Source: Amoebidium appalachense (Eukaryota; Protista; Ichthyosporea). Taken from it: DNA of 64,000 nucleotides. The notes beneath the pieces are model-generated. The model did not search any database, was not told the origin of the DNA, and worked only from the letters and a program-made list of their open reading frames with translations. The DNA is taken from NCBI GenBank assembly GCA_963693365.1, contig CAVNZM010000003.1, forward strand, positions 10,136,101 through 10,200,100, given 5' to 3'. Shown here piece by piece: positions 3,072-64,000 of this stretch. The position numbers and the translations under genes were made by a program. Positions within the stretch are counted from its first letter, which is position 1. Each line of letters starts with the position of its first letter.

Positions 3072-3110
<39 letters not shown>

Positions 3111-3403: not shown

Positions 3404-3447
<44 letters not shown>

Positions 3448-3607: not shown

Positions 3608-3639
<32 letters not shown>

Positions 3640-4043: not shown

Positions 4044-4078
<35 letters not shown>

Positions 4079-4578: not shown

Positions 4579-4617
<39 letters not shown>

Positions 4618-6039: not shown

Positions 6040-6078
<39 letters not shown>

Positions 6079-6577: not shown

Positions 6578-6613
<36 letters not shown>

Positions 6614-7006: not shown

Positions 7007-7038
<32 letters not shown>

Positions 7039-32170: not shown

Positions 32171-38350
<6,180 letters not shown>

Positions 38351-41215: not shown

Positions 41216-41246
<31 letters not shown>

Positions 41247-41279
41247 GCCACACACACACACACACACACAGGCACGTTG

Positions 41280-41367
<88 letters not shown>

Positions 41368-41391
41368 ACACACACGTTACCATGCGCACCT

Positions 41392-41438
<47 letters not shown>

Positions 41439-41507
41439 ACACACGTACATACACACACCCAAACACATGCCCGTGTGCACGTACATCGGTAGACACGAAC
41501 GCGCGAG

Positions 41508-41539
<32 letters not shown>

Positions 41540-44025: not shown

Positions 44026-44066
<41 letters not shown>

Positions 44067-44271
44067 GCGCGGGGGGGAAGAGGGAGGGGGGGAGGGGGCA
44101 TCATGATCAGGGATAACAGGGTGTGTGCGTGTGTGCGCTTGTGTGTGCATGTGCTGTGTGTGTTGTGTAGGTGTGCGCCTGTGTGTGTGTGCGTGCCTGT
44201 GTGTGCGCGCCTGTGTGTGTGTGTGTGTGTGTGTGTGCAGTGTGCATGTGTGCGTGCGCGCGTGCGCGCGC

Positions 44272-44302
<31 letters not shown>

Positions 44303-45158
44303 TGATTTCAAAGAAGTCGAAAGCGCCAGTGACACCCATGTTGAAAAAAAGACAAGCAAGCACGCTAAGAAGGACAGCAAGAAGTAACAGAAACCCTTTC
44401 ATGCCGAAAAAATGGTCAAGAACAAAGAAGTGGAGGACACGTAACTATAGTCTGATAGTTGTGACTAAGGGCACTAAGGGTAGCGCTAAGGGCACCAAGC
44501 TGATGCACGCGCGCGCGCGAGCCGAAATCTATTTTTATCTTTTTCCTAATCAGGCGCGGCGATTAGTGATTGGCTAAATCCCAATCCGGTTTGCAATTTT
44601 TTTCTCCATTTAAGCCTGTACGCACGTTGTTTTCTCCATTTCTCTTCCCCCTTCCCGCAGGTCCGCAGGTCCTTTCCCGCAGGTCGCCTGGTCGCAGGTC
44701 CCTTCCCGCAGGTCGCCTGGTCGCAGTTCCCTTCCCGCAGCGCCTGGTCACAGATCCCCTCCGCAGATCGCGCAGCCACCGTGCTGATTGTTTTGGACCA
44801 TGCTGCATGCTGCAGCTTCTTCTTGAAGGTTAGTTTTGTGTTGCCTGCTTTTGTGCATATGGCGTTTGTCTGTCTGGTCTGTGTCTGTGTCTGTGTGTGT
44901 GTGTGTGTATGTGTGTGTGCGTGCGTGCGTGTGCGTGTGTCTGCTGGCTGCAGATGCACGTTGCCTTTCACGTTCATGAACCAGCGACTGTGGGCACTAC
45001 TTTTGCTGTTAGCACTATAGCTATCATCCCCTCCACCGATCGTTCAAGCTATTTTCTGCTTCTCTAGACTTCATAAGTTCTGGTCCGGGTTTCCGTCCTT
45101 ACTATCTTTAAGGTTGGTTCTGTCGACTCTTTTTTTGCCACTCTCAGTCAGCCCCCTC

Positions 45159-45198
<40 letters not shown>

Positions 45199-46243
45199 CC
45201 CCCACTTCTCGCAAGTAGGATGAGCTAATTCTTAGCTCGAGTTTCTTTACAGGTTTTGGCAAGGTTGGCCCATGAAGTCATCAGCAGCTATAAGGCTACG
45301 TTATCATCTAGAGGTGGGTACCGGCTCTTTGTCCTATGGCTGCTGTTGTTTCCGTTTTTCGTTTCATAGGTGGGTACCGGCTCTTTGTCCTGTTAAGGTA
45401 AATAAAGTATGGAGGCAAGACCCTGTGGGTCTGGTTCTTTGTCCTATGGCTGCTGTTGTTTCCGTGTTTCGTTTCTGTGTTGCTCTTATAGCACATGAAT
45501 GATCATGTGCATGTTTAGCACCCATAGGTGGGTACCGGCTCTTTGTCCTGTTAATTACTCTGCCGGCATTTGGTATGGTATGGTTTGGTGTAAGAGTGCC
45601 CCCCTTATATTGTCATGTTGGGCGTCCTTTTTTTTTTTTTTTGGGCCTCATACCCATACACACACACCTTGTTACTCTTCTGTCAAGGGATTAGCATGTG
45701 TTTAGTTTAATGATGTTGGGAGCTTCTTAGAAACCCGCATAATAGTTTGCTTGTTTTGAGTTTTGTTTATGTTCGTTGCTGCTCTTTTATACTCCTTCCC
45801 CCCCCCCCCCCCCACACACACACACACACAAAAGAGTGACTTTTCTTTTTTTTTCTTTTTTTCTTTTTTTTTGTGTGTGTGTGTGCGAAGAGAAAAAGTA
45901 ACAGAGCTTTTTATTATTTTTATTATTATTATTATTATTTTGTGTGTGTCTGTGTATTTATTTTGTGTGTTTTCGTAGTTCGAATAAATTGTGTGAAGAC
46001 ATGTCCCGAGGACATGTCTTTAAAAATATTTGTCTTAGAAAATATTTGTCTTAGAAAATATTTGAAGTGACAGACACGCCCCAGTGGGACATAACCCTAC
46101 GTAAAAGATAATAGATGAGTTATAGTTGACACGTTCCAGTGGGACGTGTCTGCAGAAAATGGATCTGTAATCAGCGGCTCGACGACATATGACCACGTGA
46201 CAGGCAGGTTCGAAAGGGGTGAGGGGCGGGGGGGGGGGGCGGT

Positions 46244-46279
<36 letters not shown>

Positions 46280-47304
46280 AAACGACATCAAACAGTGATC
46301 GGAAACGACGTCTGGATGATATCAACTTTGAAAATGGCTCAATCATATATATCAAGACATAACATAATGATATGAAAAGGATAATATAACTATATTGCGA
46401 AAATCATTCTTAATAAATCTTAATTATACCTTAAATTTATCGTTTTGATATATGTGCTGTATGTCAAAAAGATGTGACAGAGTTATGTTAACGATATGCT
46501 ACTAATATCATAAGGAATGGTTAGCTGATAAACTACTATATGTTTTAACGATATGTAACAGATACTAGAAAGATGTCGTGTAGAGGACATACAGCCAGAA
46601 CTTCTCATATCTTTAAAGGCTCCTAAAACTATCAAAACGATATTATTACGAAATTTCTTTTGACCCATCCTAGTTATCTTTATGTTATGAGGCTTATATC
46701 GTTATGACATTTAACGTATGATCTTTAGATAATGTTTTCGGCATCCTATACCTATCCGTTGTATATGAAAAGGACATCTGTAATAGTATCTTATAGATGT
46801 ATTACCATATACGAAACCTCCTATAATGACCTCGAAATGATATCATATAGATATATATGTATCTTATGATCGATTATCATATATATCGTAAGGATATGTG
46901 ATAGCTACCATAAGGATATGGGGAAGGGCTCCTAATCCGCTATTAGAGATATCTTTATTATGTCTAAAACGCTTCTGAACATCAGACTAAAAAGATTTTA
47001 TGATATCAAATAGACTATCATAATGGTATCATACGGATATAACGAGGTTGTTGAATACATGGAACACAGGATAGAACAACGATGGGTTCAGGGTGCTCCG
47101 TATGAGCCCATTATGAGATCATTTTGATTTCTAGCAAAAGATACCAAAATGATATCCAGAAAACCCGTGATAGCAAAACGATGCTGTTATGTTATCTAAA
47201 AGACAAGAGGGGGATAAAGAGTGGCAAAAAGATGGGTTTATGGGTTTATGATATCTTTAATGGGTTTTTAATGGGTTTCGGATGCCGGATGAAGTTTGCT
47301 GATG
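38631..47304. mobile_element. Non-autonomous TIR DNA transposon, CMC/EnSpm-like, 8674 bp
   Basis: Perfect 34-bp TIRs catcagcaaacttcatccggcatccgaaacccat (38631-38664 / 47271-47304). CA (or CACA) flanks both ends as a candidate TSD. Long subterminal zones are dense in GATATC-type hexamers. No transposase ORF seen. Confidence 0.8.
41651..43562 (+). repeat. Satellite array, 182-186-bp monomer x ~10.4
   Basis: Unit starts (ccttgtagcatag) at 41651, 41833, 42016, 42201, 42384, 42570, 42752, 42935, 43121, 43307 and 43490 (last one partial). Confidence 0.97.
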
Positions 47305-47720: not shown

Positions 47721-47721
<1 letters not shown>

Positions 47722-48485
47722 GTTGGAGTACACTGGTACTCCCGGCTAGCAATGTCTGTTAGAGAAAGTTTCTGAGCAATTGAATAACTGTTTCAACACT
47801 CACTCGAGTGCATAGAGCTTTTGTTTACGGTCATATTCATATATGGTAGTTATATGTTTGAGCCAAAACTGTACCAATGACGAGCTTCACTAGCAACGTG
47901 CTAATTGTGCTCATTAATTAATATTCCCGGTTCAGATGATGTCATGTCTATATTTGCCACAGGATTCTATTCTTAGAGTGGTAGTGTGCTTTATTCCCGG
48001 ATATTCTCAGAATATTTTTAGTTGTGTGAAGCAAGATTTACGTTTAACTGCAATTGGTGTGTTAAACACGTTTATTTGTGTGCTTTAGTGCAAGTTAACT
48101 AGCCACTCAACGTGCACAGTTAACTTTTATATCTTTAACGACTTGTTTTCATTGTGCTCTCTTTTCGGCCATGCTGTACATGGCCCACCACCAGGGTGCA
48201 CACGAGGCCACCATGAGGTGGCCAACGACTATATAAAGCAGTGCCTCCCATGTCACAAACATGGGAAGCAGAACGTTTGATTTACACTTTTCTACTGTCG
48301 TTTCCAGTGCACAAAACACATAGACTAGTTACCCATCATACACGACACTATGTCTGACAACTTACAGTTGCAGCAACTAGTCCAACTACTGGAGCAGAGG
48401 TTGGCCTCACAAGATGCAATCATTTCTGACTTACAGAAGGAACAACGTGCACTAGAACTAGCTTCTATGAACACAATGTCCAACA
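47721..48485 (+). repeat. 5' LTR (765 bp)
   Basis: TG...CA ends with 7-bp inverted termini; TATA-like ctatataaag ~48229; matches 52833-53597. Confidence 0.96.
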
Positions 48486-51400
48486 GGGTTATGGGCCCCT
48501 CACGTAATGATTCCATCAAGTTCAAGGTCGACATCCCTCTCTTCACTGGCATTGATAATGATTCAGGCACGGACTACCACACATGGGCCGAAACCATGTA
48601 TGTCCAGCTTTCTGGTGCTGGTCTTCTCCACACCATCGCGCCCAGTACGGAGCACCCGGCTACCCGTGAACAGGTCGACACTGCCCGTTCCTACCTGTGG
48701 CAAGCACTCTCGATTGACGTGCGTTGTATCCTAGGGTTAACACGCACCACCACACCTGCGGAGATATGGTCGGCCCTATCTGCCCACTACCTGGAGCAAT
48801 CTGAGGCCAATCAGTACGACCTTATCGGGCTGTACATGAATTCTACGCCTGAACCTACGGACACCGCGACGAAATACGCCATGAAACTCCGCGGCTACGT
48901 GCGGCGCCTGGCCGATTACGGCACACAAATTGGTGATGCTCAAGTGCTGACCAAGCTCACCAACGACCTCGGCAAGGTGCCTTACTACGAAATGCCTGTA
49001 ATTGCCTACAAGATGACACCCAAGCCTACCGTGACGGGCCTCCTCCAACAGCTACGGGCATATGAGACCAGCCACCCACGTGCACGTGTGACTACCAGCT
49101 CCGGGCCGGCCGCCTTCACCACACGGGCTCCTCAACCTGTCATCTGCCACGGCTGCGGCAAACCAGGCCACATCAAGTCTCAGTGCCCCAACGGCAACGG
49201 CCAACACAGCAACTCTGGCAACAACCGTGCCAGCACCTACCCCAAGGGTTCCTGCGTCAACCACCCACTGTCTACCAGTCACACTACCGCCATGTGCAAG
49301 GGGGGCAACCGTGCCAACGGCCGCAAACCTAAGGGTGGTCCCCTCCTGCCTGGGTCCTGCATCAACCACCCTGCCTCTACTACCCACACTACGGCACAGT
49401 GCAAGGGGGGGCTGCCGCTCCCCGGGCTTTCCTCATGTCTAGCAACGACTGTGGCACCAACAAGGTGCTCCTCGACTCTGGAGCCACTGACCATGTGTGC
49501 CCCCGGCCCGATGTGTTCATCAACATGCGTGCGGCGCCTTACTCCACGGTCCAAGTAGCCGACAAGGGTGCATGTGCAGTGCTTGGGGTGGGCGACGTGT
49601 TCTTTTCCAGCACCATCGACGGCGTTACTGCGGTGCATCAGCTGACGGATGTACTCTACGTGCCCTCCATCCCCGACACTCTCATCAGTGTGTTCACGGC
49701 AACTACCAACGGTGTTTTACCCCGCTTTGACACCCGCGGCGGCGTTAAGTTGTGCTACGGCGATCAAATTCTGGCCACCGGCTCGGCTGTCGGCACCAAG
49801 CTGTACCACATGGCGGTGTCTCTTCTGCGCGCGGACACAACCCCGGACGCCCAAACCACCACTGCTCCGCGTATCCTCAAGGTTACTGCCGACCTCAACA
49901 CGTGGCACTACCGTCTGGGCCATGCTGGCATTGACGCTGTACGCTCGGTCATCAAGTCTGCAGGCCTGTTGGTGGGTGGCGGTGCCAAGTCTCCGGGTGT
50001 GTGTGAGCCCTGTGCCCTCGGCAAAGCCCACCGTGTTGCCTTCTCCGAATCAACTAGCCAAGCTCCCCGGGTCCTCGCCAAGGTTCACAGCGACATCAGC
50101 GGCCCCTTCCCTCCCGCGATCGGTGGTGCTCAGTACTTGGCGACGTTCCACGACGAATTCACCGGCCACACCACGGCCGTGCCCCTCGTCAAGAAGTCGG
50201 ACACACTGGCTGCATATGTGACGTACCACAAGGCGGCGGTTACCCAACACGGTGTTCCCATGCAGGTGTTTCAGTCCGACGGGGGGGCGAGTACATGGGC
50301 ACGGCCTTCGGGGACTACAACCGTGAGCATGGCATTCGCCATCAGATCACTACCACCGGCTCTCCTCAACAGAATGGGACTGCCGAACGACTGAACCGGA
50401 CCCTCCTCGACATGGTTCGGGCACTCCTGCAGCAGTCCGGCCTTCCGGTGGGATTCTGGGCCGAGGCAGCTGTGACCGCGGCTTTTATACGCAACATGCT
50501 CCCGTCGCGAGCCACCGGCAGCCAATCGTCTCCCGCTCTGCTGTGGACCGGCATTCCTCCCGACTACAGCCGGCTCCGTGTCTGGGGCTCTCCCTGCTAC
50601 GTCCATCAACAGGATACACCGAAACTGGCGCCTCGTGCCGTCAAGGGCGTCTTCGTGGGCTACCCTCCTAACATCAAGGGCTACAAGGTCTGGATTCCAG
50701 CAGCACACAAGATGACCGTCAGCCGTGACGTGCAGTTCGACGAGGCTGCTATTCTGCACCCCCTCCGTGATGTCCCATCTGATTGGTCGACCGCACCGGC
50801 AATTCATCATTTTTTGGAGTCATCTGATTCGTCAAATCAGCCAGCCAATCACATCGTCCGGAATGATCAGCAATCTGATTCGTCTCGTCTGTCAGCCAAT
50901 GGGACAGCGCCGAGTGATCAATTGGACATTCCGATCCTGCCCGAGCCTGCACATCGGCTCCCCCGGACGACCCGTAGTGGCGCTGTGTACAACGACCAAC
51001 GTCGAGGCCCGACTGCCAACGTGGCTGCTGCTACGGCCCCCCTTGCCCCCCAGGCTACGGCTCCTGCATCAACACCCATCAAGGCTTCCACCATTGTTGT
51101 CCCCAAGACTGTCCGGGCTGCACTCAAGAGTCCCCAGCGTCTGAAATGGGAGGAGGCTGCACACCGTGAGCTCAAGGCCCTGGAAGACAACGGCACCTTC
51201 ACCCTTGTGCCCCGTCCAGAGGATGGCTCCACTGTCATTCCGGTCGGCTGGGTCTTTACGGTCAAGCAGGACAACGTCGGCAACGTCACTGCTTTCAAGG
51301 CCCGGCTTGTGGCCCGGGGCAACTACCAGCAGCCTGGCCAGGACTATTTCGTCACCGAGTCACCTGTGGCTGCGCTGGCTACCATCCGGCTGGTTTTGGC

Positions 51401-52646
51401 TACCTCCGTGGCCCAAGGTCTGCCTCTGCGCCACATCGACGTCAACACAGCATTCCTCAACGGCACCGTCAACGAGACCATCTACATTGAGCAGCCCCCT
51501 GGCTTCGTCAACCCCTCGGCCCCCCATGCTGTCGGCTTGCTCCACAAGGCGCTCTACGGCCTAAAACAGGCACCGCGCCAGTGGTATGAGGCCCTCCGTG
51601 ACCATCTCCTCGACCAAGGCTTCATTGTGAGTGCTGCTGACCCGTGCCTGTTCATCAAGAATGCCGGGACCCCAACATTTATTGCCCTTGCTGCCTACGT
51701 GGATGACTTCACCGTGACGGCCGCCACTGATGCGCTCATCGACGATTTTTTCACCAAGCTGGATGCTCGTTTCTCTGCCAAGGACCTGGGTCGTCCTACC
51801 CTGCTCATCGGGCACACTCTTACCTGGCTGGAGGACGGGTCTCTGCGTCTGGGCCATCGTCAACACATCATCGACTTGGCTGCCCGTTTTCGTCTCACCC
51901 ACATGTCCGGCACCAAGACCCCCATCGTCCCGGGCCAGGCCAGTGAAAGCAACAAGACCCCAGCCTACAGCAAGAAGGAGGACTATGCCAGCCTGGTCGG
52001 TGCCCTGCTGTGGATTGCGCGTACCACCCGCCCCGACATTTCCCAGGCTCTGGGAGTCCTTACTCGACACATTCATGCGCCCACCGTCACCCACTGGACT
52101 ATGGCTACCAGAGTTGTAAGCTACCTGCTGGCCACCATCGACCTGGGTATTGTCTACCGTCCCGGCCCCCCCAACCTTGTTGGCTACTCCGACTCCGACT
52201 ACGCCGAGGACCGCGACACCCGGCGCTCCACCACGGGCTATGTCTTCTTCATAAACTCCTCCCCTGTGTCCTGGGTGTCTCGGCTCCAGTCCATCACCAC
52301 CCACAGCTCCACTGAGGCTGAATTTGTGGCCATGTCTGCTGCTACGAACGAGGCCCTATGGCTCAACTATGTGATGGACGACCTGGGCCTTAATCCTATC
52401 AATGAGCCCACCCCGGTGCCCATCCATGGGGACAATGAGTCTGCCCGGGCCCTGCTGGACACCCTGGGGGTTAAGCCCAAGACCAAGCACATCGACGTCC
52501 GCTACTGCTCCGTCAAGGAACATCACCTGCTGGGCAACATCACTGTGGTCCCGGTGGCTTCTGCTGACAACAAGGCCGACATGTTCACCAAGGCCCTGTC
52601 TGCCTCTTTCTTCACCAAGGCCGTGGGGATGCTCAACATGTGCTGA
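48350..52646 (+). CDS. Copia gag-pol polyprotein, broken by two single-base frameshifts in G7 runs (49405-49411, 50281-50287)
   Basis: Gag CHGCGKPGHIKSQC; protease LLDSGATDH; integrase WHYRLGH..CEPC, HSDISGP, QSDGG(G)EY, NGTAERLNRTL; RT FKARLVARG, LYGLKQAPR, YVDD; RNase H YSDSDYA..SSTEAEF..DN..KHIDVRY..ADMFTK. Confidence 0.93.
48487..48498 (+). other. Primer binding site GGTTATGGGCCC (half-tRNA-iMet type)
   Basis: Directly after the 5' LTR; same motif as the PBS of Drosophila copia-type elements. Confidence 0.8.
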
Positions 52647-52819
52647 GCACCCGTCATCAACCAACTGCGCCCTCATACTTCAGGGGGGGGGAGAGAGTTG
52701 CATCCGACTGTGCAACTACGTGTACCATACTAAAATTGAGTAGGGGAATCTTTATTGTCTGTATTTTGTGCACCTGAAGCACTCGAGCTCAGTTGCATTA
52801 ATTCATACCACAATTATCC

Positions 52820-52832
52820 AATTGAGTAGGGG
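52820..52832 (+). other. Polypurine tract
   Basis: aattgagtagggg abuts the 3' LTR. Confidence 0.75.
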
Positions 52833-53597
52833 TGTTGGAGTACACTGGTACTCCCGGCTAGCAATGTCTGTTAGAGAAAGTTTCTGAGCAATTGAATAAC
52901 TGTTTCAACACTCACTCGAGTGCATAGAGCTTTTGTTTACGGTCATATTCATATATGGTAGTTATATGTTTGAGCCAAAACTGTACCAATGACGAGCTTC
53001 ACTAGCAACGTGCTAATTGTGCTCATTAATTAATATTCCCGGTTCAGATGATGTCATGTCTATATTTGCCACAGGATTCTATTCTTAGAGTGGTAGTGTG
53101 CTTTATTCCCGGATATTCTCAGAATATTTTTAGTTGTGTGAAGCAAGATTTACGTTTAACTGCAATTGGTGTGTTAAACACGTTTATTTGTGTGCTTTAG
53201 TGCAAGTTAACTAGCCACTCAACGTGCACAGTTAACTTTTATATCTTTAACGACTTGTTTTCATTGTGCTCTCTTTTCGGCCATGCTGTACATGGCCCAC
53301 CACCAGGGTGCACACGAGGCCACCATGAGGTGGCCAACGACTATATAAAGCAGTGCCTCCCATGTCACAAACATGGGAAGCAGAACGTTTGATTTACACT
53401 TTTCTACTGTCGTTTCCAGTGCACAAAACACATAGACTAGTTACCCATCATACACGACACTATGTCTGACAACTTACAGTTGCAGCAACTAGTCCAACTA
53501 CTGGAGCAGAGGTTGGCCTCACAAGATGCAATCATTTCTGACTTACAGAAGGAACAACGTGCACTAGAACTAGCTTCTATGAACACAATGTCCAACA
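52833..53597 (+). repeat. 3' LTR (765 bp)
   Basis: No difference from the 5' LTR found by eye; preceded by the PPT. Confidence 0.96.
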
Positions 53598-53749
53598 GGG
53601 GGGGGAGGGGGGGGGGGGGGGAGGGGGGGGGGGTAGGCAATGATCATCGCAAAGCTCAGCTGCCGCAAGTGCACTTACGATGGCCTTTTAAAGTCTAAAA
53701 TATAGAGAATAAACATCTGTACATTTTCTCATCTCTGATGTAAAACGCT

Positions 53750-54907
53750 ATGCAGGGAAGGTCGCGCGGCTGGCAGACACTCTTTGGGCCCGTTCGCCCA
53801 TTTGCGAACCGAAATATGAAAGACACAGGCCAACACTACCGGGGAGTATATTGGAATGGTAAAGAGGGCAAATGGTATGCAAAGATAGGAAGCCACATTT
53901 ATGTCGGTTCCTACGAAAACAGTCGCACGGCTGCACGGCAGCGGGATTTGGTCATTGATTTGTTGGTGCAGAAGGGGGTGTTGGCTCACCGATACCTAGA
54001 TTCTAAAAATGTTAGCCTCGGGAATTTGCGTAAATTCAAACCGACAGCCGATGATTTGGATTGGGCAGAGGAGTGGTGGGCCAAGAAAACAACAAAGGCG
54101 AAATCGTCAGTGTACAAGGGCGTAGCCTACAAAATTAGCAATATCCAAGAGCCGTGGCGCGCGTCTTATCGGAAGGATGGTGTTTCTCATTACGGCGGGA
54201 ACTACGCGACAGAAGTGGAAGCGGCACTTGCAAGGGACAAGGTGATACGTACTCTGGAGATTTCAAAGCGAGAGAAACTAACTTAAGGCGCCTAAACTTC
54301 TATCTCCCTGGCGATTATTTGAGTGTCGAGGAAGCAGAGCAGGCTGGGTGCATAGGGGTGTCCTTCCACACAGCCAGATCCCATTTACCCAACCCTTACG
54401 AAGTGCGCCGAGGGGATAGAACTGTTTCGGGTACCCAACCGAAATCCCTCGGCTGCTTTGCCTCGGTCACCGAAGGAGGCCGGGCATACGATCGAGACGC
54501 ACTGGCTGCATGGGCGCAGCAAAACGGACCACGCGGCCCCCTGCCCCCAACCAACTTCTGTCCGACCGAATACGGACACAAACTCCCTCAGCTGCCGCCA
54601 CCAATCCACAACCCCACGATAGCAACCAAAGACGAAGGCTCCGGTGGTGTTACGCATACCGCTGCCGACGAACATTCCCAACCACATCATCCCCTATGCG
54701 ACCCAAGAAATTGGCGGTGATGCCAACAATTCACCTCAAAGCAACAGGCAGGCTAAATCGACTCCACAGAGCAACAGCAACGACGGCCCGTTGGCTGTTG
54801 GTGACGTCACTGACCGGAATAATGACGACGTGGCGGGACAACACAACTCCCACTCGGATGCAAACGTTAACTTTCAGGCAGGGGTGGGGCAGAAAAGAAT
54901 GGTTTAA
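53750..54907 (+). pseudogene. Protein with three AP2/ERF DNA-binding domains; frameshift at ~54270 and possibly ~54690
   Basis: AP2-like repeats YRGVYW..GKWYAKI..YVGSY..TAARQRD; SSVYKGV..PWRASY..GNYATEVEAALARD..RLNF; IGVSF..SLGCFASVTEGGRAYD..PTNF. May be the last exon of an upstream gene (tatgcag| at 53754). Confidence 0.75.
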
Positions 54908-54992
54908 GTGTGGTAGGTGGTCAGATACGTATACAGAGGTGGGCCCCGGGGACACATAAGGTACTCTTATAGGAGAAAAGAAGGTACTACAA

Positions 54993-55063
54993 TAAGGGGC
55001 GCGGCACCCCGTGAATGGTGACGTCACAAGTGACGTCACATTCACGCGGTCCCGCACCCCTTA
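54993..55063. other. Imperfect ~35-bp hairpin with two self-palindromic GTGACGTCAC arms (T/Y-shaped)
   Basis: taaggggcgcggcaccccgtgaatg GTGACGTCAC aa GTGACGTCAC attcacgcggtcccgcacccctta: 3 mismatches and 1 bulge. Confidence 0.85.
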
Positions 55064-55326
55064 GGATATGGGATATGTGAATATGAGATATGTGATATCT
55101 GTGTACACATATCGCGATATGGGATATATGTGATATGGGTGGATATATGTACATGAGCACGTGCACACACTGTGTGTGTGTGTGTGTAAAACACGTGCAG
55201 AGCACGTGGTTTTAACTAAATGATTAAACAATTAAAGAGAGAGAGGGCGTGTCACGTGTACGCGTACGTGTACGCGTACATGTGGTGCGTACACAAGTGC
55301 GGATCAAAGGAATGCGAAGGTTTGCG

Positions 55327-55503
55327 CAAGGCGTCCAATGGGTTCGAATTCTGAATTCCATGTACAAGGCGTCCAATGGTATTACGGATGCGCAGGGTGG
55401 CCAATGATAATTCGGCTCAAAAAAGCAAATTGCCGCACAAGGCGTCCAATCGGAATCTAGACTGGCACATGTGGTTCTAGGTGTCCAATGAGGGCACAGG
55501 GAA
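55327..55503 (+). promoter_or_regulatory. Cluster of GGCGTCCAAT (CCAAT-box) motifs upstream of the 305-aa ORF
   Basis: CAAGGCGTCCAAT at 55327, 55365 and 55438; GGTGTCCAAT at 55480; GGCCAAT at 55399. Confidence 0.55.
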
Positions 55504-55668
55504 CAGGGATTACGGTCCTCATTGGCCAGAAACGCACCCTGCATCCTACCACCGTGTACATAAACAGCCGCACACAGGCAACATCTCACCAACCAAACAT
55601 GAGCCAGACAGTCACAGTCGAGGTGCACACCACAGTAACGTTCACCACACCCCCCAAGCAACAGCAAA

Positions 55669-56586
55669 ATGGTCAAGCCAACCCTGCTGCGTCAAATGAC
55701 TGGTCTGTCCACCGTCAAAAGGACCAGCATCGCCGCGGCAAGCAGTGGCAAAGAAAACATCAACAGCAGCGTTGAGGGGGCCAAGATGGTGCTGTACAAG
55801 GAGGTGTTCCTCAATGGTGTGGGCAAGGCCACCATGGGTGCACCCTGGGTCATGAACGACGTGCTGGTGGTGCAGCTGTACAACCTGCCCAACATCAACA
55901 TCAACGGGCAGATGTTGATTGAACTGGGCACCCACCTGTCTGCCTACGACAAAACCACAATCAAGATCAAGTCCCAGCGCCACCCTGAGCCCTTTGAGGT
56001 GGCCTACGCCGTTGGCCTGTGGCCCTACGTGTGCAGCATGGCCAAGGACGTGCTGTGGATGCACAAGGACCACGAGATGCTCAAGGATGTCGATCTGGAC
56101 ACCGTTGCCGTCAAGACCAGCAGCAGCCTGTGGTCCAGACACAGCCCCAACCTGTACGAGGTGCTGGGTGCCAACCCCGTCAGCAAGGCGGACATGGAGG
56201 GGGCACTGGGCGACACCTACTTCAACGTGACGGTGGAGCTCCCCAACCCCACTGGCCGCAACCCCTGCCTCTTCAAGCTGGGCAACAACGCGGCCTCTGT
56301 GGATGAGTTTGTGGAGTTTATGAACTCCCAGCGTGCCAAGTGCCGTGAGGTTACTGCATGGGTGTCTGCTGCCGCCACCAGTGTCATCTACAACAAGAAA
56401 AGCAACACTGTGCGCACCAAGCTCGTTGCCCGCAAGGTTCAGGTGTTTGATTTAGACGGTCTGATGGAGTTGGTCAGTGATGGTGCGGGTAGTGAGGGGG
56501 AGGGGGGTGATGTAGACATGGGGCAGGCTAAGCGTGCTGGCACGCCCATGCCTGGGGAGGACAAGGCCAAAATGCTCAGGATGTAA
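55669..56586 (+). CDS. 305-aa viral-element protein, possibly a T7 gp2.5/NCLDV-type ssDNA-binding protein
   Basis: Intact intronless ORF with strong codon bias. C-terminal beta-rich VTAWV..SVIYN..VRTKLVARKVQV followed by an acidic/Gly tail. The ORF is secure; the function is tentative. Confidence 0.6.
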   Translation: MVKPTLLRQMTGLSTVKRTSIAAASSGKENINSSVEGAKMVLYKEVFLNGVGKATMGAPWVMNDVLVVQLYNLPNININGQMLIELGTHLSAYDKTTIKIKSQRHPEPFEVAYAVGLWPYVCSMAKDVLWMHKDHEMLKDVDLDTVAVKTSSSLWSRHSPNLYEVLGANPVSKADMEGALGDTYFNVTVELPNPTGRNPCLFKLGNNAASVDEFVEFMNSQRAKCREVTAWVSAAATSVIYNKKSNTVRTKLVARKVQVFDLDGLMELVSDGAGSEGEGGDVDMGQAKRAGTPMPGEDKAKMLRM

Positions 56587-56967
56587 TAGGCACATGTCTG
56601 TTTATTCAGAATCTCTTTACCTCCGGGTGATGCCACGAAATAAACTTCTTCCCAAAAAAAAAAAAAACACTGTGTACCGCCGCGACTGAGTTGACTTAGT
56701 ACGTACATGAGTGAGAGAGTAAATGATTGCGCCAACTTGAACTTTGCGTAACTTATGAGCCAATGAAATCAAGCGAAATTGAATGTTACGTAATATTACG
56801 TATACACTTTTTTCTCCCATGTGCACTCTATCAGCTGTCGGCTCTCTCAGTCTCGTCTCGTTTTCGTTCGTTTTTTTGTGAAGAAAAAACTTAGAAAAAA
56901 CTCTTAAACATTTTCACAATCATCTCTTTTCGCACTTTTAGGTAGCAACACTTAGAAGTTACACCAC

Positions 56968-57056
<89 letters not shown>

Positions 57057-57142
57057 ACGCATGCATGCACACGTAGAAGGGTGTGGTAGGGTGACTGTTG
57101 GTTGCCTTTGGTTTTTTATTTTTATTTTTGTTTTTATTTTTA

Positions 57143-57207
57143 TTTTTCGTTAAAAATTTCATAGATTTTCGTTAGAGCCTTTTTGGCACACACACACACA
57201 CACACAT

Positions 57208-57252
<45 letters not shown>

Positions 57253-57664
57253 TGCAGGCACACGTGTGCAATGCACCATAGTAGTCTTCAACTTGTGCTC
57301 TGTTTTTTTTCCTTGGATCTTTTTGCCGTCGGTTTTCTTTGTAGAAAAAAAAAAACGTGAAAATAAAGGGCTCCGCCCAATGCATCCACAGATCACAAAG
57401 TTTTTTATTTTTTATCGTTAAAATCTTCATAGATTTTTGTTAGAGTGTTTTGGCACACACACAAGCACACACATGCACACACATGCACACACACGCACAC
57501 GTGCAGGCACACGTGTGCAATGCACCATGGTAGTCTTCAGCTTGTGCTCTGTTTTTTTTTCTTGGAACTTTCGTAAAAAAACAAAAGTTTATTTTTGCCG
57601 TCGGTTCAATTCTTTGTATAAAAGAAGAAGAAAAAAAAACGTGAAAATAAAGGGCACTGCCCAC
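57143..57664 (+). repeat. Degenerate tandem duplication, ~270-bp unit x2
   Basis: cgttaaaa..catagattt..gtgcaggcacacgtgtgcaatgcacca..aaacgtgaaaataaagggc occurs twice. Confidence 0.85.
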
Positions 57665-57788
57665 TATGTATACACAAATCACAACGGTGTCTATGTTAAT
57701 GAGACCATGGCATGCTCAAACTTTAAGGTACTTTACTAAAAAAATTAAAAATGGCAAAGTTTAGGGCACTGCCCCCCTATCCTGTGCA

Positions 57789-58890
57789 CTAGCCCATGTA
57801 GCCTTGGTTCACAGTCTTGAGGGGCGGTGCCGCTGAGGTACGGAGTAAGTTAGGCACCCGGGTCCTACCGTAGAAGTAGGGGGCACCGACCGTCATGTTG
57901 TTGTTGTTGTTGTTGTAGGGGGTGTTGCTGTTGGTGCTGCTGCTGCGGAGGGGGGCAAGGTTTTCCTTCTCCTTGGGGGCAATGTCGATGAACGTGCCGG
58001 ACTTGCGCCGTGATGGTGCCTCCTTGTGGATGCTTTTCTTGATCAGCCCTGCAAACACAATCTTCTCACCTGCACCATACATACGCTCATTCGCAACCCC
58101 ACGCAGCAATGCCTGCATGTCATGGAGGACATCCATGGCGACCCCTTTGAAGAGGGGCGTGGACTTCAACTTGGCTGCCTTTGCAGTGGCCACCATGGTC
58201 TGCAGGAAGCCAGCAACAACACGAGCCAGGTGGCGGGCCACCTCTCTCTCCCTGTGGGGAGTGAGTCCTGCCTTGCACATCCCGACGATGGGCTCCCAGT
58301 TGGCCTCTATCTCCTCCAGGTACCTCTGCATGTAGTCGCCAACCAACTGAGGGTCTGTCTCTACCTTGTGCCTAGTGGATCTCTCATGCTCTGTGAACTG
58401 CGGTAGGAGGATGTCTACCACAGCAGCAGCCACCCCCTTGAGCATGACGCGTTGCGGCACGCGAGTGTTGCCAAAAGCGACTTGCCGTGCAGTTCAGCCA
58501 GTTCTGCAGGCTCAGAGATGGTACCACGCACCAGCATCTCAGGGAGCCATGCCCCATCAAAGTCATCTAGACCCGTGAAGCGTTTTTGGAAGTAGACTTC
58601 GCCCCCTGCATCATAGCCAGCGAAGAAGTCACCTTTCTTGGCGGAGAGGAGGAAGGACGCTGCGTTGGCGGAAACACTGGGCTGTGCTGCATACCCCTCA
58701 GCAAGCGTGCGGTAGGATGCGTAGAAGGGTTGAAGCAGAACAGTGTCAAGATCCAAATCTTTGAGATGCCAGGAGAAGGTGCGGCCAGGAGGAGGCCTGC
58801 GGGCTGGCACAGAATGATGGCTGCTGCGGCGGCAGCAAGAACATCAGCATCGTCTAGAGCTAGAGGGGGCAGGAAGGAGAGGCCTGCCAT
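57789..58890 (-). pseudogene. Hypothetical ~365-aa protein split by two frameshifts
   Basis: Three overlapping minus ORFs (58567..58899, 58415..58810, 57789..58460) with coding-like composition; aaaccATG start at 58890. Confidence 0.5.
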
Positions 58891-59173
58891 GGTTTCCAAA
58901 GTTCGCTGCTTGCAAAAAGACCAGGCTAGAGTGGCTTAGAATATAAGAAAAAGTGTTTGAAGAAGGAACGTTTGCAGGTGGCTTTTGTGCCCTCCATTGC
59001 ACACACGCTGCCGTGCTCCAAAATTCGGTGACTCCTGCTGCACTAGGCGTCCAATAGGAGCACAGGGGAGTCGCCAATGGAATGCAAGTCAGCAAAGGCT
59101 ACAGCATTTTGATTGACCGCTCGCACCGCCCGCCAACGGTTCCCTGCACACTTACCATAAACGGAAGGTTCCA

Positions 59174-59761
59174 TTAGAGGATGCCGCGTCCCGATACGTT
59201 TGGCGACCTGGCTGGCGGCCAGACGTAGGGCTTACCGTCCACAACTTGAAGCACCTGCGTACCGCCCCCTCCGCCCCCTCTCCACTCGTAGCTGTTTCCC
59301 TTGCGTGTGCCTGCAGCATTCAAGTTATAAGGACCATATCCCAACGCATTCTGGGTGTTGTGCAGCAGGTAGTTGCCCGCATCCCTCGTGCCATTCCTCA
59401 GGGTCTTCCACGCACTGAATGCACCATTCTGCGCGCCCTGCCCTGCACGCTGCGTGCCCTGCACGGCAGCATCGCCTGTGGCACGCGCAAACCCCTTGAT
59501 CCCCTTGAACACCGTCCCCCCCGCCTCCTCCGCCTTCCCTGCAGTGTAGGTGGCAGCATCCGCAGCCTTGTTGTACATGTAGTTGCCCACCCCCCTCGCA
59601 ATGTCCCCCTTGTGCTTCCACGCATAGTACCCCCCTGCCCCCAAGGCTGCACCGCCCGCCAGGGCCCCCACCCACTTGGCTACCTCTGACGCCTTGTTTG
59701 GCTGGTTCTGCACGTAGATGACACGCGTGTTGCCGCTCCTGCCTCGCGATGACACCCCCAT
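59174..59761 (-). CDS. 195-aa Gly/Ala-rich protein with one hydrophobic segment (putative virion/membrane protein)
   Basis: caccATGG start; VAKWVGALAGGAALGAGGYYAW followed by amphipathic Ala/Gly helices. Confidence 0.6.
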   Translation of the reverse strand: MGVSSRGRSGNTRVIYVQNQPNKASEVAKWVGALAGGAALGAGGYYAWKHKGDIARGVGNYMYNKAADAATYTAGKAEEAGGTVFKGIKGFARATGDAAVQGTQRAGQGAQNGAFSAWKTLRNGTRDAGNYLLHNTQNALGYGPYNLNAAGTRKGNSYEWRGGGGGGTQVLQVVDGKPYVWPPARSPNVSGRGIL

Positions 59762-59858
59762 GGTGATGTGACTTGCACGCCTACTTATGCATGCACAATA
59801 TTTTTATTTTTGTTCGCCAAGTGCCCGCTTGGCCTTGGCCTACTACGTACACTAACGG

Positions 59859-60122
59859 TCAGTGCATGGGCCTGCCATGTGCACGCCTGAGTGCCGCAAA
59901 GGTGGGTCTGGGGCGAGCAAATCGGCCTGCTGCAGACCCTGCCATGGTGCTTGGTTTGAGGAAGAAGGGGTGGCGGGTACCGTGCGGGCATATCTTGTCC
60001 GCAACGGCCCGTGCCATCGCCTGCTGGCCATAGTAGCTAAAGTCTGTGTGCGTGGCGTTTGACGTGCGGGCGGTGAGGGGCTGAAACTGGTCGTTCAGCA
60101 CGATTTGGTAGGTGTTGGCCAT
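59859..60122 (-). CDS. ~87-aa small protein with Arg-rich C-terminus
   Basis: caccATGGCC start; packed between its neighbours; tail RFARPRPTFAALRRAHGR. Confidence 0.45.
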   Translation of the reverse strand: MANTYQIVLNDQFQPLTARTSNATHTDFSYYGQQAMARAVADKICPHGTRHPFFLKPSTMAGSAAGRFARPRPTFAALRRAHGRPMH

Positions 60123-60189
60123 GGTGTGCACGCACTACATACACTCTAACACACATTTTATGATCTAGCCCCAACTAGTAGATCTTAAG

Positions 60190-60736
60190 CTAGAAATCCA
60201 GCCCCAACACGCCCCCTGCCTTTGAGCTGCGCGGGTATGCCTCAGGCACCCACGACACTACACGTGGTCCCCCAACAGGCTGGGGCTCCGTGAACAAAAG
60301 CAGGCACACGCCCTCGGGCGATGGCCTCTTGAACCCCTCAAACTTGATCCTGCCCCGCAGGATGCGTATCTCTGCGGCGTACCTGAACGCCAGGTCATGG
60401 AACCAGCGTGCCTCCGTGCGTGCGGGCACGAGGAGCACGCTCTTTCTACCCTTGGATATGTACATCCGTATGGCCTTGCGTAAAAAGGGGGGAATCTCAG
60501 AGAAGGGAGGGTTGACATAGTTTATTTTCTCGCTGGACCACACGCCGTCGTCTGTGAGTGCGCAAGGGTCCTCCCCCCTCCCGCCAGGTGATGGGGCAGG
60601 GGTCGTTGAGTGCGCCAAACTCCTTTTCGAGTGCACCCAGCACCCATGCAGGCGTCTGCACCTTGTCAGTGTCCACTCCTGCCTTCCTCTTGTCCTGTGT
60701 AGCCTTGTACACCCCGCAGCAGCTGCCCAACCCCAT
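60190..60736 (-). CDS. Phage Dam-family (T1/HP1-type) DNA N6-adenine methyltransferase; one frameshift in a G-run at ~60575
   Basis: Joined frames give DKVQTPAWVLGALEKEFGALNDPCP..CALTDDGVW..YVNPPFSEIPPFLRKA..SVLLVPARTEARWF..AAEIRILRGRIKF. Confidence 0.85.
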
Positions 60737-60969
60737 GATGATCCGCACAGCTGGTCCCGCACCTGTGGGCCGCCAAAATTTCGCGGGCCACGGGTCGGGC
60801 CGGGCCGGGCCGGGTCGCGGCAGGGCCGGCTCGGGTCGGGTCGACCCGGAGAAGTCCGGGTCGGGTCAGGGCCTGCGGCCCGCACATGGGCGATTAGCCT
60901 GATATGGCAGTTACCCATTTGGGCTAGTTTTGAAGGCTGCCGGTTGGTGGGGCGTCTTTGTTTTTTTTT

Positions 60970-62297
60970 TCAAGACGGGCGTGCACGCCTTGCGCTGCGC
61001 CTCAGCACCACTTGCTCCTCTTGGTGTTCAAACGCCAATTTTTTGAGTTCCCGTGCCTTGCGTTTTTCTTTGTCTTTCTGCGTCTGTGCACGCGTGCCCT
61101 TGTGGCGTGCAAGTTCACGCCCTTGAAACGCCAGCTCCTCACGGGCTTTTTCCTTGGCGGTCTCCTTGCGGGCAGCGCGCATCCCGCTGCTGGGCGGTAC
61201 AGACACGCTGGTAGGTGGCACCTTCTTTAGCATGGTGTCTGGCCAAGCGTAGCGTAGGCCTGGCGTGTGTTTCCTCATCCCCCCTGTGGCTGCGTTGCGT
61301 AGCGCCCACCCACTTGCATCCTTGTAGGCGAGCGTGTAGACGTCCTTGGACCAGTTTCTGCCCTCCTTTTCAAACGGTCCCTTTGGCTTTTTGAGTGCAC
61401 GCACGTGCACGCCCTCCGTGTGCCCCATCTTGGCACGTAGCTCACCCTTTTGTTTCCTGTTCTCCAGCCACGTGTTGATGCTGTTCCACCGTTCGGCCCT
61501 CTGGGTCATCTTGTTGGGCTCTCTACCGATCGAACCATGGTACGTGTCGTTGTAATCCTCCAACACATTTTCCAACCCTTCCCCCGTCCACTTGCCCGTG
61601 TCGTTGGCCTCCATGTACTTGCTCAATCCTTGCTTTAGGGTGCGATGGAACCGTTCTACCATGGCCACGTTGCGTGGTTTTCGGCCTGGCTTTTGCGGGA
61701 GGATGGTGATGTCGTGTTGATCGTAGTACTTTTTCATTGTATTGCTGAGGAACTCCGTGCCCTTGTCCGTAAAGATCTGCTTTACCTCTGTAGGTTGTAG
61801 GTTTTCCTCCCCCTCGTTGCTTTCGTCCTTCATCTCCCTGATGGTCTTTAACGCTTTGTGCACTGCCCTCTGCATCTCCCCGGCGGCCCGTTGCTGATGG
61901 TGAGGTGCTCGTTTTTCCCGCTCCCTGAGCTCTTTGTTTTTATGGGCACGACCGTCGCCTGCCTTGTGTTCATGTCAATCATGCTCAATCCCCCCTTGTA
62001 CCACCTGTTTGCCTTTGAGTAACGCGGCATAAAAAACAGATCGGCAGCCACGCTGTTTGGCCGTGCTGTGGTGGTGAGGTAGTCCTTCCTCTCGATACGA
62101 TGGGGGGCGAGCACCTCCTTGAGGGATTCCTGCTGCCCGGTGTTTCTTCTGGACAGGTAGGCACGCACGGCCGGTTGCCCTACCCTCTTGTCTTTTGCTT
62201 TTGCACGCCGCCACAGTGCCTGCACGGTGGGGGGGAGCTTGAAGGTGGCGTAGGTCTCCTCAATCACCTGCTCAATGCCCTTGTCTCTGGCCACCAT
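60970..62297 (-). CDS. Polinton/Maverick-type retroviral-like (rve) integrase; one frameshift at ~61880-61940
   Basis: N-term VQALWRRAK..VRAYLSR; D1 VAADLFFMP; D2 IFTDKGTEF; E VAMVERFHRTLK; YNDTYHGSIGREP; C-term HVRALKK..FEKEG.NWSKDVY. Confidence 0.88.
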
Positions 62298-62318
62298 GGT
62301 GGTTTCCTGTGCTCGCTA

Positions 62319-62894
62319 CTAGTCGGTTGACACTTTCTCCTCGGGCACCCTTCTTGGCCTGCGGGTGTTGGTGGTCTTTCTGGTCGTTTTTTTGGCCTTG
62401 GGGGCAGGGGGTGCCTGGAGCTTGATGGGGTGGTCGGGGATGAGGGGGTGTGGGTGCAATGGGGTGACGTCCTTTTCCGTGTCCGTGCTGCCTGTGCTTG
62501 AGGCCATACCCTCATCATCGTCGAGTAGGGTGAGCACGGCGGATTGTAGCTCTTGTGGTGGGGGAGGGGGTGACTGGGGTGGGGAGGGGAAGGCAAAGAG
62601 GGGCTCAAAGGGGGGTGTAGGGGAGAGGAGGTCGTGGGGGAAAGGGGTGTCTGGCCGGGGGGAGGGGGTGGGGTGCTCGTGCAGTAGCACCTCCCTGATG
62701 GTGCTTGCATTCTCTTTCAACCACTCTGTAAAGGGTCTCCACTCTAGCCCCTTTTCTGTGCAAACCAACATCTCCCCTTCCTTGGGCGGGTGTTTTGGGA
62801 ACACGAGGTCGTAGGCTTCAGTAGATGGGTGGGCTAGCACACCCACGTACCCGCCTGCACGCGTGAGCAGATTGAGCCTGGTTACGTTAGACAT
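62319..62894 (-). CDS. 191-aa protein: fibre-like N-terminal motif plus Pro/acidic/basic disordered tail
   Basis: GGYVGVLAHP..YDLVFP..EGEMLVCTEKGLEW resembles the GYVG..Y.L.LP..GQVL..G.L.W motif of phage/virus fibre proteins. Confidence 0.5.
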   Translation of the reverse strand: MSNVTRLNLLTRAGGYVGVLAHPSTEAYDLVFPKHPPKEGEMLVCTEKGLEWRPFTEWLKENASTIREVLLHEHPTPSPRPDTPFPHDLLSPTPPFEPLFAFPSPPQSPPPPPQELQSAVLTLLDDDEGMASSTGSTDTEKDVTPLHPHPLIPDHPIKLQAPPAPKAKKTTRKTTNTRRPRRVPEEKVSTD

Positions 62895-62945
62895 CTTGGT
62901 CTTGTTTTTCCCTTTTATTATGGTTGCACATTTTTTCGTACGGAG

Positions 62946-63705
62946 ATGGTAGTAGGCAACTCAGTTGTGAGAATGATTGTCGACCTTGCACGTATATATT
63001 TTACCACCTGCTGTGCCATCATGTGTGTTGCACTCGTGGTGGCGTCCTACGGCACAGCCGTACTCATACCGGAACTTGCCAAACGTAATGTTTTGGCTCA
63101 TCATCCTACCCCTCACAGGTGTGGTCATGTGCCAGGCACAATGGGTGGCGTATGCCTGGCTCGACGTGGACACCCACCCTGACGTGGCCGGGCACTGTGT
63201 GATGTGGGCACCCTACTGGCTGGGCTCGTGGCTGTATGTGGCCTCCCCCCTCGCCTACATGCTGGCAGCAGCGTGCTGGGCCCGATCCATGCGTGTGACG
63301 ACCACGTTGTTCTTCCCACGGGCCGTGGCGTACATGGTGTGTGCCTCCCTCCTCCCCCTAAGTGCCCTCTATGGCATGACGTGCGTGTTTGAACCGTCGG
63401 TGTTTGGCTACGTGTTTCTTGTGTTGAGGGGCGTGCTGGCGTGTGCCACCCTCGTCTGTGCACGGTACATGCTCTCCCTGTCCGTGCCCGTGCTCACCAG
63501 GAACATTGTGCTGTGCGTGTGGGTGCATGCAGGCCTTGCACTGGCAGGCATTGTGTTTGACGAGCTCCACTGGAACTTGTGGGAGTTTGGGTTTTTGGAG
63601 AACGGGTTTCTGACCACGTTGGGATACACACTGCTCGCCTGCTGCCTGCTTGCCCTCTGGTACCTCATACTCTACTGCATGGACGTGCTGGGCCCCTACA
63701 CGTAG
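62946..63705 (+). CDS. Seven-transmembrane (GPCR-like) membrane protein, ~250 aa; one frameshift near 63065-63085
   Basis: ORF 62946..63182 supplies TM1 and ORF 62977..63705 supplies six further hydrophobic segments. Confidence 0.6.
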
Positions 63706-63707
63706 TT

Positions 63708-64000
63708 TTAGGGCATGGTCCATTTTGGCCCGTTGTCCCAGTCGCCCACATCCACGACGTTGTGGTCGGTTCCGTACTTACCCTGGTTGTTCTTCCAGGC
63801 CTCGAGCTCGGCGGCGTAGTTGTCGTAGTCGGTGGCGGCCCGGCGTGCCTTCCTCTTGCCCATCTTGCCAATGCCCGTGCCTAGCTTACCTCCGTACCTC
63901 TGTGCGAGTTTGCATGCCCCCTTGCCCACGGCAGACACGGCATCACCGACCACAGGTATGACCCCCATCAAGTCCATCACACTCTCCACAATGTCCAACG
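63708..64000 (-). CDS. C-terminus of a protein with an amphipathic GVIPVVGDAVSAVGKG motif (5' truncated by the window)
   Basis: Frame is open to the window edge; stop lies 2 nt from the convergent 7TM stop. Confidence 0.55.
   Translation of the reverse strand, partial: LDIVESVMDLMGVIPVVGDAVSAVGKGACKLAQRYGGKLGTGIGKMGKRKARRAATDYDNYAAELEAWKNNQGKYGTDHNVVDVGDWDNGPKWTMP

What the first reader, a model, noticed from the sequence alone, without database searches (positions are those of the whole stretch)
54993..55150. Parvovirus-like T-shaped terminal hairpin followed by GATATG iterons: candidate viral telomere/replication origin
Seen: a 71-nt imperfect palindrome (3 mismatches, 1 bulge) whose apex is GTGACGTCAC-aa-GTGACGTCAC. 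Each 10-mer is self-complementary and contains a CRE site (TGACGTCA). About 9 degenerate GATATG units follow immediately. Known: mismatched eared hairpins next to short iterated binding sites are the origin layout of rolling-hairpin replicons, whereas Polintons are thought to be protein-primed. Inferred: an integrase-encoding virus that may replicate by hairpin priming.
Basis: partly seen in the sequence, partly recalled or inferred. Interest (0 to 1): 0.78.

Follow-up and report, generated by a model that had tools for sequence, protein, structure and literature searches.

The report
Hairpin just inside a Polinton-like end
A real 71-base fold-back sequence and a run of short repeats sit seven bases inside the likely end of a multi-copy DNA element that is probably a Polinton-type integrated virus; the fold is predicted to be straight, not T-shaped, and likely acts as an end signal rather than a parvovirus-style primer, and similar ends were described in a 2026 preprint.

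Summary
The palindrome (54993-55063; 30 pairs, 3 mismatches, 1 bulge) and the GATAT array are real and exceed chance. The fold is not T-shaped: the straight form is 10.5 kcal/mol better and 0 of 20,000 sampled structures have two loops. Contigs of one public run break from both sides at 54985|54986, and depth steps up in that bin in 4 of 4 runs, so the hairpin starts 7 nt inside a probable element end. The genes downstream include an rve integrase whose relatives are Maverick-type (name recalled) and a Dam methylase. Folding the strand whose 3' end lies here leaves a free 7-nt tail, and the end reads ACT-ACA, like a jump-back repeat; both argue against plain self-priming. Best reading: sub-terminal origin/promoter signal in the terminal repeat of a Polinton-like element (0.5). 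Hairpin priming stays possible (0.2); a 2026 preprint proposed it for palindromes in virophage/PLV ends. The far end, the polymerase gene and flip/flop isomers remain untested. New member of a known kind.

The parts
54980..54985 (.). Last bases of the flanking (AP2-gene) sequence; candidate left copy of a 6-bp target-site duplication
   Evidence: Run X16 contig 12 follows the window to 54985 and then runs on for 168 other letters. The second copy would lie beyond the far end, outside the window, so the TSD is untested.
54986..54992 (+). Probable element tip, 7 nt outside the palindrome, beginning ACT-ACA (imperfect short repeat)
   Evidence: X16 contig 13 matches from 54986 with 55 unlike letters before it; boundary good to about 1 nt. 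Stays unpaired as a 3' tail when the minus strand folds.
54993..55063 (.). 71-nt imperfect palindrome: G/C-rich outer arms, two CRE-containing decamers at the apex; straight hairpin
   Evidence: plus strand -28.7, minus strand -36.3 kcal/mol; T form -18.2.
55064..55150 (+). Array of 10 GATAT(G/C/A)-type units, variable between copies
   Evidence: variant arrays leave the window at 55092 and 55127 in runs X1, X2, X7.
55151..55565 (+). Promoter-like block: 4 CACGTG boxes, a (GT)n run, 5 CCAAT boxes on the plus strand and 1 on the minus, a TATA-like site at 55557; a terminal repeat may end near 55450
   Evidence: Motif list (motif names recalled). Depth falls after 55422 in X1, X2, X7 and an X7 contig leaves at 55450: weak hint only.
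55669..56586 (+). First gene, 305 aa, orphan; weak lead to a viral single-stranded-DNA-binding protein
   Evidence: No homolog. Atlas neighbours carry Pox_I3 (12% of members) and DUF2738 (10-13%) at scores 0.76-0.81, below the 0.9 lead line. Folds failed, pLDDT 34 and 40.
59044..59068 (+). Interior copy of the 25-nt CCAAT motif at 55478-55502, tying the end region to the gene cluster
   Evidence: 5 mismatches of 25; best match for 300 of 300 shuffled queries is 7 or more. The query was picked by eye after seeing the likeness.
60190..60969 (-). DNA N6-adenine methyltransferase (Dam-like)
   Evidence: Pfam PF05869 E 1.8e-11; PHROG 111 E 1.4e-20.
60970..62297 (-). rve-type integrase, split over two frames in this assembly (break near 61880-61900)
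   Evidence: Both parts match one 470-aa protein P0001 at about 45%; 15 further relatives all carry rve, 7 with a chromodomain, 2 named 'F54H12.3(-like)'.

Best explanation
The hairpin and repeats are likely the outer part of the left terminal repeat of a multi-copy, probably Polinton/Maverick-type integrated virus, where they would act as an end signal (origin plus promoter of the first gene) rather than as a self-primer. Shown: the palindrome, the array, a junction at 54985|54986, diverged sister copies, and an rve integrase and Dam gene 5-7 kb downstream. Inferred: the 7-nt tip is the integrase end and, with its ACT-ACA repeat, the template for protein-primed initiation with jump-back; the palindrome (two CRE sites, two G/C boxes) and the GATAT array are binding sites in duplex DNA; on a displaced minus strand the palindrome would fold and leave exactly this tip single-stranded for the priming complex.
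For: Junction seen from both sides in X16 (contigs 12 and 13), bridged without a difference by X7 contig 26, and a depth step in 4 of 4 runs. Minus-strand fold leaves a free 7-nt 3' tail (-36.6, z -9.8); only 2 of 7 outer positions pair, so a fold-back primer could not regenerate the tip (inference from rolling-hairpin geometry, recalled). Vertebrate Mavericks end in 6-nt short repeats thought to allow jump-back (PMC8097293 passages). Integrase relatives are rve+chromodomain proteins. A 25-nt promoter motif and GC3 0.69-0.79 in 7 of 7 ORFs tested downstream, against 0.54 for the flanking AP2 ORF (copia pol also has 0.70), tie the end to the gene cluster. Dense E-box/CCAAT/TATA block before the first ORF.
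Against: No pPolB, capsid, ATPase or protease gene is recognisable in the visible 9 kb, and the far end is outside the window, so TIR, TSD and protein priming are unproven. ACT-ACA is imperfect and is none of the three motifs listed in PMC8097293. If the first ORF is an OB-fold SSB (weak), that type is typical of non-protein-primed systems (PMC4889955 passages), and the preprint links such palindromes to non-pPolB elements. The palindrome is not invariant: the deepest X16 contig lacks 4 nt of the left arm, and contigs in X1, X2 and X16 skip or replace 55014-55091. A microsatellite-rich spacer (56.9-57.8 kb) separates the first ORF from the integrase cluster, and no listed contig bridges it. 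The exact tip rests on two contigs of one run.
Confidence: 0.5

Rival explanations
1. Hairpin-primed replication: after excision the minus-strand 3' end folds back, is trimmed, and primes synthesis by a non-pPolB machinery, as proposed for Halocafeteria virophages and PLVs.
For: Long stable palindrome within 7 nt of the end. All three mismatches are G.T or G.G on the strand whose 3' end lies here, making it 7.6 kcal/mol more stable than the other (roughly 1 in 7-14 by chance, my estimate). Iterons adjoin it. Weak SSB lead for the first gene. One variant right arm in X2 and X7 has two of the three letters expected of the inverted isomer (read by eye). Precedent in the preprint.
Against: The 3' end is unpaired and the 7-nt tip is shared by two insertions, which fold-back priming would erase. 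No ears. No HUH/Rep or resolvase among 101 ORFs. The variant arm lacks the third isomer letter and has two other changes, so it is not a clean flop.
Confidence: 0.2
2. By-product: the palindrome arose once by fold-back copying of a CRE/GC-box promoter segment near the end and works only as a duplex enhancer; it never needs to fold.
For: Embedded in a dense promoter-like block. Uncompensated 4-nt loss in the left arm in X16's deepest contig and copies that skip the centre and right arm. The preprint itself offers accidental annealing as an alternative. Double decamers without arms occur in 43 unrelated viral-contig loci.
Against: Unique in the window and very far from chance; position at the end matches reports in other elements; the damaged variants may be dead copies.
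Confidence: 0.2
3. The end belongs to a smaller separate repeat (a non-autonomous element, or the hairpin plus first ORF only) and the integrase cluster is a different insertion.
For: Microsatellite and tandem-duplicated spacer at 56.9-57.8 kb; the end region is several times deeper than the ORF in all four runs; the window is full of nested elements.
Against: Shared 25-nt promoter motif and similar GC3; nine runs hold half or more of the words of 53650-63600.
Confidence: 0.1

Closest known systems
Terminal palindromes of endogenous virophages (subtypes 1, 2, 5, 6) and PLV subtype 4 of Halocafeteria seosinensis (bioRxiv 10.64898/2026.07.28.741278; section 7 read whole, figure images and supplements not seen)
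   Same: Palindrome of similar size (52 nt in their subtype 5, 71 nt here) at the end of an rve-integrase-associated element; the same hairpin-priming idea and the same by-product alternative.
   Different: Here the palindrome is imperfect, built of CRE and G/C boxes, starts 7 nt inside the end and is followed by a GATAT array; whether theirs are flush or offset could not be seen; capsid type and replication gene are unknown here.
Polinton/Maverick terminal inverted repeats (PMC8097293, PMC12747079; passages)
   Same: rve integrase, multi-copy, short-repeat-like tip, probable terminal repeat of a few hundred bases (46-1447 bp reported).
   Different: Tip ACT-ACA is not (AGT)2, (AG)3 or (AC)3A; 'palindrom' has 0 occurrences in the vertebrate Maverick paper; pPolB, ATPase, protease and capsid genes not seen in the visible part.
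Parvovirus / AAV rolling-hairpin telomeres (recalled)
   Same: Imperfect palindrome with mismatches next to short iterated units.
   Different: No ears, 3' end not base-paired, no HUH Rep found, flip/flop not shown; the element carries an rve integrase and Dam instead.
Adenovirus ITR origin and Streptomyces linear-replicon telomeres (both recalled, no call)
   Same: Short terminal repeat followed by host transcription-factor sites including CRE/ATF (adenovirus); folded sub-terminal palindromes that recruit a protein primer (Streptomyces).
   Different: Analogy only; no terminal protein or polymerase identified here.

Membership tests
Parvovirus-type rolling-hairpin telomere | Palindrome runs to the terminus so that the folded 3' end is base-paired | tested here: not met
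   7 nt lie outside the stem, 2 of 7 pair; free 3' tail in the fold; end placed.
Parvovirus-type rolling-hairpin telomere | T/Y shape with two ears | tested here: not met
   -18.2 against -28.7 kcal/mol; 0 of 20,000 sampled structures.
Parvovirus-type rolling-hairpin telomere | Flip and flop isomers | tested here: inconclusive
   One search shows 40 of 342 substitution rows, none in the stem; one loose end has 2 of 3 isomer letters plus 2 other changes.
Parvovirus-type rolling-hairpin telomere | HUH Rep nickase gene | tested here: inconclusive
   0 of 101 ORFs in 53601-64000 (Pfam); 0 of 14 chosen ORFs in PHROGs; the element continues past the window.
Parvovirus-type rolling-hairpin telomere | Short iterated sites beside the hairpin | tested here: met
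   10 GATAT-type units; binding itself untested.
Polinton/Maverick | Retroviral-like (rve) integrase | tested here: met
   that 'F54H12.3-like' denotes the Maverick integrase is recalled (searches did not confirm it).
Polinton/Maverick | Terminal inverted repeats | tested here: inconclusive
   No second copy of the tip in the window; depth fall and a diverging contig near 55450 are a weak hint.
Polinton/Maverick | 6-bp target-site duplication | not testable with these tools
   Far end outside the window; no whole genome held.
Polinton/Maverick | Short tandem repeat at the tip | tested here: inconclusive
   ACT-ACA if the end is 54986, TAC-TAC if 54985 (sequence); not one of the three motifs in PMC8097293.
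Polinton/Maverick | pPolB, packaging ATPase, protease, jelly-roll capsid genes | tested here: inconclusive
   None recognised in the visible 9 kb; most of a 15-25 kb element would lie beyond the window.
Halocafeteria-type palindrome-ended virophage/PLV | Palindrome within the terminal repeat next to the insertion site | tested here: met
   Starts 7 nt from the junction.
Halocafeteria-type palindrome-ended virophage/PLV | Non-pPolB replication genes; virophage or PLV capsid | not testable with these tools
   Only a sub-threshold SSB lead; no capsid gene in view.

The most novel reading that the evidence does not exclude
The element lacks pPolB, and its minus strand folds into a strand-specific hairpin that either primes synthesis or presents the 7-nt tip to a priming protein, as Streptomyces telomeres do, with a giant-virus-type SSB as first gene. 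The hairpin is built from host transcription-factor sites (double CRE here; one X7 contig hints at a sister subfamily with a CCAAT core in the same place), so origin and promoter would be one switchable structure.
Probability: 0.15. Interest if true: 0.75.

Novelty: new member of a known kind. Interest (0 to 1): 0.35.

Why it matters
How Polinton-like elements start replication, above all those without pPolB, is open. This end is a good test case: many diverged copies, three mismatches and a bulge that would mark flip/flop isomers, and a 7-nt unpaired tip that separates self-priming from protein priming. The element also seems a distant lineage (one integrase relative at 45%, orphan genes otherwise). 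The general feature, a palindrome at such an end, is already described.

Tried and rejected
T-shaped fold: rejected. Self-priming from the natural end: geometry against. Known RNA family: 5 sub-threshold Rfam hits, all in the 57.4-57.5 kb microsatellite, none on the hairpin. Public relatives of the hairpin: double-decamer scan of viral contigs gave 44 stretches, none with comparable arms on inspection; exact apex pattern in metagenomes 0. Related loci by integrase: none confirmed in viral contigs or metagenomes. First ORF: no homolog; two single-sequence folds unusable; Foldseek on the second gave 0 matches at E 0.001. Two 14-nt flank motifs do not map in the window beyond chance. No RNA holder was listed. 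No whole genome. Copy number from depth: not used, because contig depths are summed and X16 may be an RNA run. A finer read-out of variants across the hairpin was not obtained, so flip/flop and covariation are open. Literature: 10 searches; of the 8 papers opened, only the Halocafeteria preprint describes such palindromes; paywalled papers (e.g. the original Polinton description) and bioRxiv supplements were not seen and may bear on novelty. Earlier scan notes: nothing for this genome or sequence.

Full report
Observation. The palindrome is as described: 54993-55063, 30 pairs, three mismatches, one bulged G, two GTGACGTCAC decamers around AA. It folds at -29.3 kcal/mol, z -7.8, 0 of 200 shuffles, and is the only short-loop hairpin of its class in 64 kb. 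Ten GATAT-type units follow, five of them exact GATATG; 0 of 2000 shuffles reach the observed 8 GATAT. The T shape fails: the decamers pair with each other; the eared form is 10.5 kcal/mol worse and appears in 0 of 20,000 sampled structures.

Context. The host is a eukaryote of undetermined lineage with an intron-rich GH31 gene at 13.5-24.4 kb and many microsatellites. Left of the hairpin lie a copia element (47721-53600) and an AP2-domain ORF (53750-54286). Right of it lie a promoter-like block, an orphan 305-aa ORF, several orphan ORFs, a Dam methylase and an rve integrase split over two frames that both match P0001. Its 15 more distant relatives all carry rve, 7 also a chromodomain, and 2 are named F54H12.3-like; I recall that name as the Maverick integrase, but searches did not confirm it. 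No Rep, resolvase, pPolB, capsid, ATPase or protease family was hit by 101 ORFs in 53601-64000; the element runs off the window.

Where the end is. Contigs of 4 of the 23 listed runs were laid on 53400-56950. Depth rises in the bin holding 54986 in all four (X1 565 to 4086, X2 68 to 368, X7 3.5 to 16, X16 197 to 2432). In X16, contig 12 follows the window to 54985 and continues for 168 other letters, while contig 13 starts matching at 54986 after 55 unlike letters. X7 contig 26 crosses the junction with no difference, so the junction is not an assembly error. The element therefore most likely begins at 54986 (plus or minus 1), seven bases before the palindrome. Depth falls again after 55422 in X1, X2 and X7 and an X7 contig leaves at 55450, a weak hint of a terminal repeat of about 465 bp. 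Caveats: the tables show only 40 of 342 substitutions, 12 of 51 indels, 24 of 135 loose ends and 32 of 1800 pieces; depths are sums over contigs; X16 may be RNA (it holds an exon-exon join), so its depths give no copy number; the exact tip rests on two contigs of that one run.

Link to the integrase. A microsatellite-rich spacer at 56.9-57.8 kb was not bridged. A 25-nt CCAAT motif at 55478 recurs at 59044 with 5 mismatches, better than all 300 shuffled queries, and GC3 is 0.69-0.79 in the 7 downstream ORFs tested against 0.54 in the AP2 ORF (the copia pol, a different element, also has 0.70, so GC3 alone is weak). One element is likely, not shown.

Variation. The iteron array differs between copies (loose ends at 55092 and 55127). 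The deepest X16 contig lacks 4 nt of the left arm, with no matching right-arm row among those shown. Contigs in X1, X2 and X16 skip or replace 55014-55091. A contig in X2 and X7 has a right arm with two of the three letters of the inverted isomer but also two other changes. An X7 contig has a CCAAT-containing stretch in place of the right arm (all, read by eye). So the hairpin is neither invariant nor shown to flip.

Mechanism. The strand whose 3' end lies here folds better (-36.3 against -28.7; its mismatches are G.T and G.G) and leaves a free 7-nt tail. In rolling-hairpin replication the palindrome runs to the very end (recalled); a tip outside it, shared by two insertions, would be lost by fold-back priming. 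The tip reads ACT-ACA, close in kind to the 6-nt repeats that end vertebrate Mavericks and are thought to serve jump-back in protein priming (PMC8097293, passages), though it is none of the three motifs listed. I therefore commit to: sub-terminal origin/promoter signal of a Polinton-type element, primed by protein at the tip, with the palindrome and array as binding sites and possibly a structure that exposes the tip (0.5). Against this, the first ORF has a sub-threshold likeness to giant-virus SSB clusters (DUF2738 as an SSB is recalled, one search found no paper), OB-fold SSBs go with non-protein-primed systems (PMC4889955, passages), and palindromes are reported to go with non-pPolB elements. 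Hairpin priming keeps 0.2, a by-product with enhancer function 0.2, a separate small element 0.1.

Known versus new. bioRxiv 10.64898/2026.07.28.741278 (section 7 read whole; passages) reports palindromes in the TIRs next to TSDs of four virophage subtypes and one PLV subtype and proposes hairpin priming, untested. Earlier AI notes of this scan list similar ends in other genomes, two of them 10-13 nt inside the tip (unchecked leads). Other papers seen as passages only: PMC12747079, PMC12220804 (no 'palindrom' or 'hairpin'), PMC6431247, 10.64898/2026.05.21.726589 (mentions a Dam from an endogenised adintovirus and 6mA at ApT), PMC11662393. The finding is a new member of that known kind; its CRE-built apex, iteron array and unpaired tip are its own features. 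It is not a parvovirus-type telomere by two tested criteria, and Polinton membership is supported by the integrase only.

Verdict. Observation partly confirmed, interpretation partly supported, interest 0.35.

Noticed in passing
window 38350 and 53756: An X16 contig joins sequence matching 38320-38350 directly to 53756 (matched by eye), at a GT donor and AG acceptor and in frame with the AP2 ORF: a 15.4-kb intron filled with nested elements, or an intronless copy. It suggests that X16 is an RNA run.
   Followed up: partly
window 47721-53600: Copia element with 768-bp LTRs that are 100% identical, inserted in a poly-G tract; the gag start lies inside the LTR; gag-pol is split over three frames next to G runs, which may be assembly errors.
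   Followed up: partly
window 38631-47304: GATATC-rich region bounded by 34-bp inverted repeats, holding a tandem array of about 186 bp at 41.6-43.6 kb (period by eye): probably a non-autonomous TIR element.
   Followed up: no
window 3330-7300: About 4-kb near-perfect palindrome centred near 5506; real inverted duplication or fold-back assembly artefact.
   Followed up: no
window 60741-60900: G/C-rich stretch of GGGCC-type repeats just upstream of the Dam domain, folding at -31.5 kcal/mol per 80 nt.
   Followed up: no
window 55065 (run X7 loose end): One contig has a CCAAT-centred, partly self-complementary 12-mer where the window has the second CRE decamer: perhaps a sister subfamily with a different apex; only 30 of 45 letters were visible.
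   Followed up: no
window 55064-55150 and 60190-60969: The array is rich in ApT and the element encodes a Dam-like enzyme; the units could be adenine-methylation sites. Speculative; 6mA at ApT is discussed in 10.64898/2026.05.21.726589.
   Followed up: no
window 54801-54810: A third GTGACGTCAC decamer lies 185 nt outside the junction, in the flanking sequence.
   Followed up: no
L006, L014, L015, L038 (3001-3025): Two 148-150 kb viral contigs carry a double decamer about 65 nt from one end and again internally in inverted orientation, without hairpin arms.
   Followed up: no
window 468-1070 (-): Exon with a bacterial-type solute-binding domain (PF01547, E 3.6e-07) in a eukaryotic host gene.
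   Followed up: no
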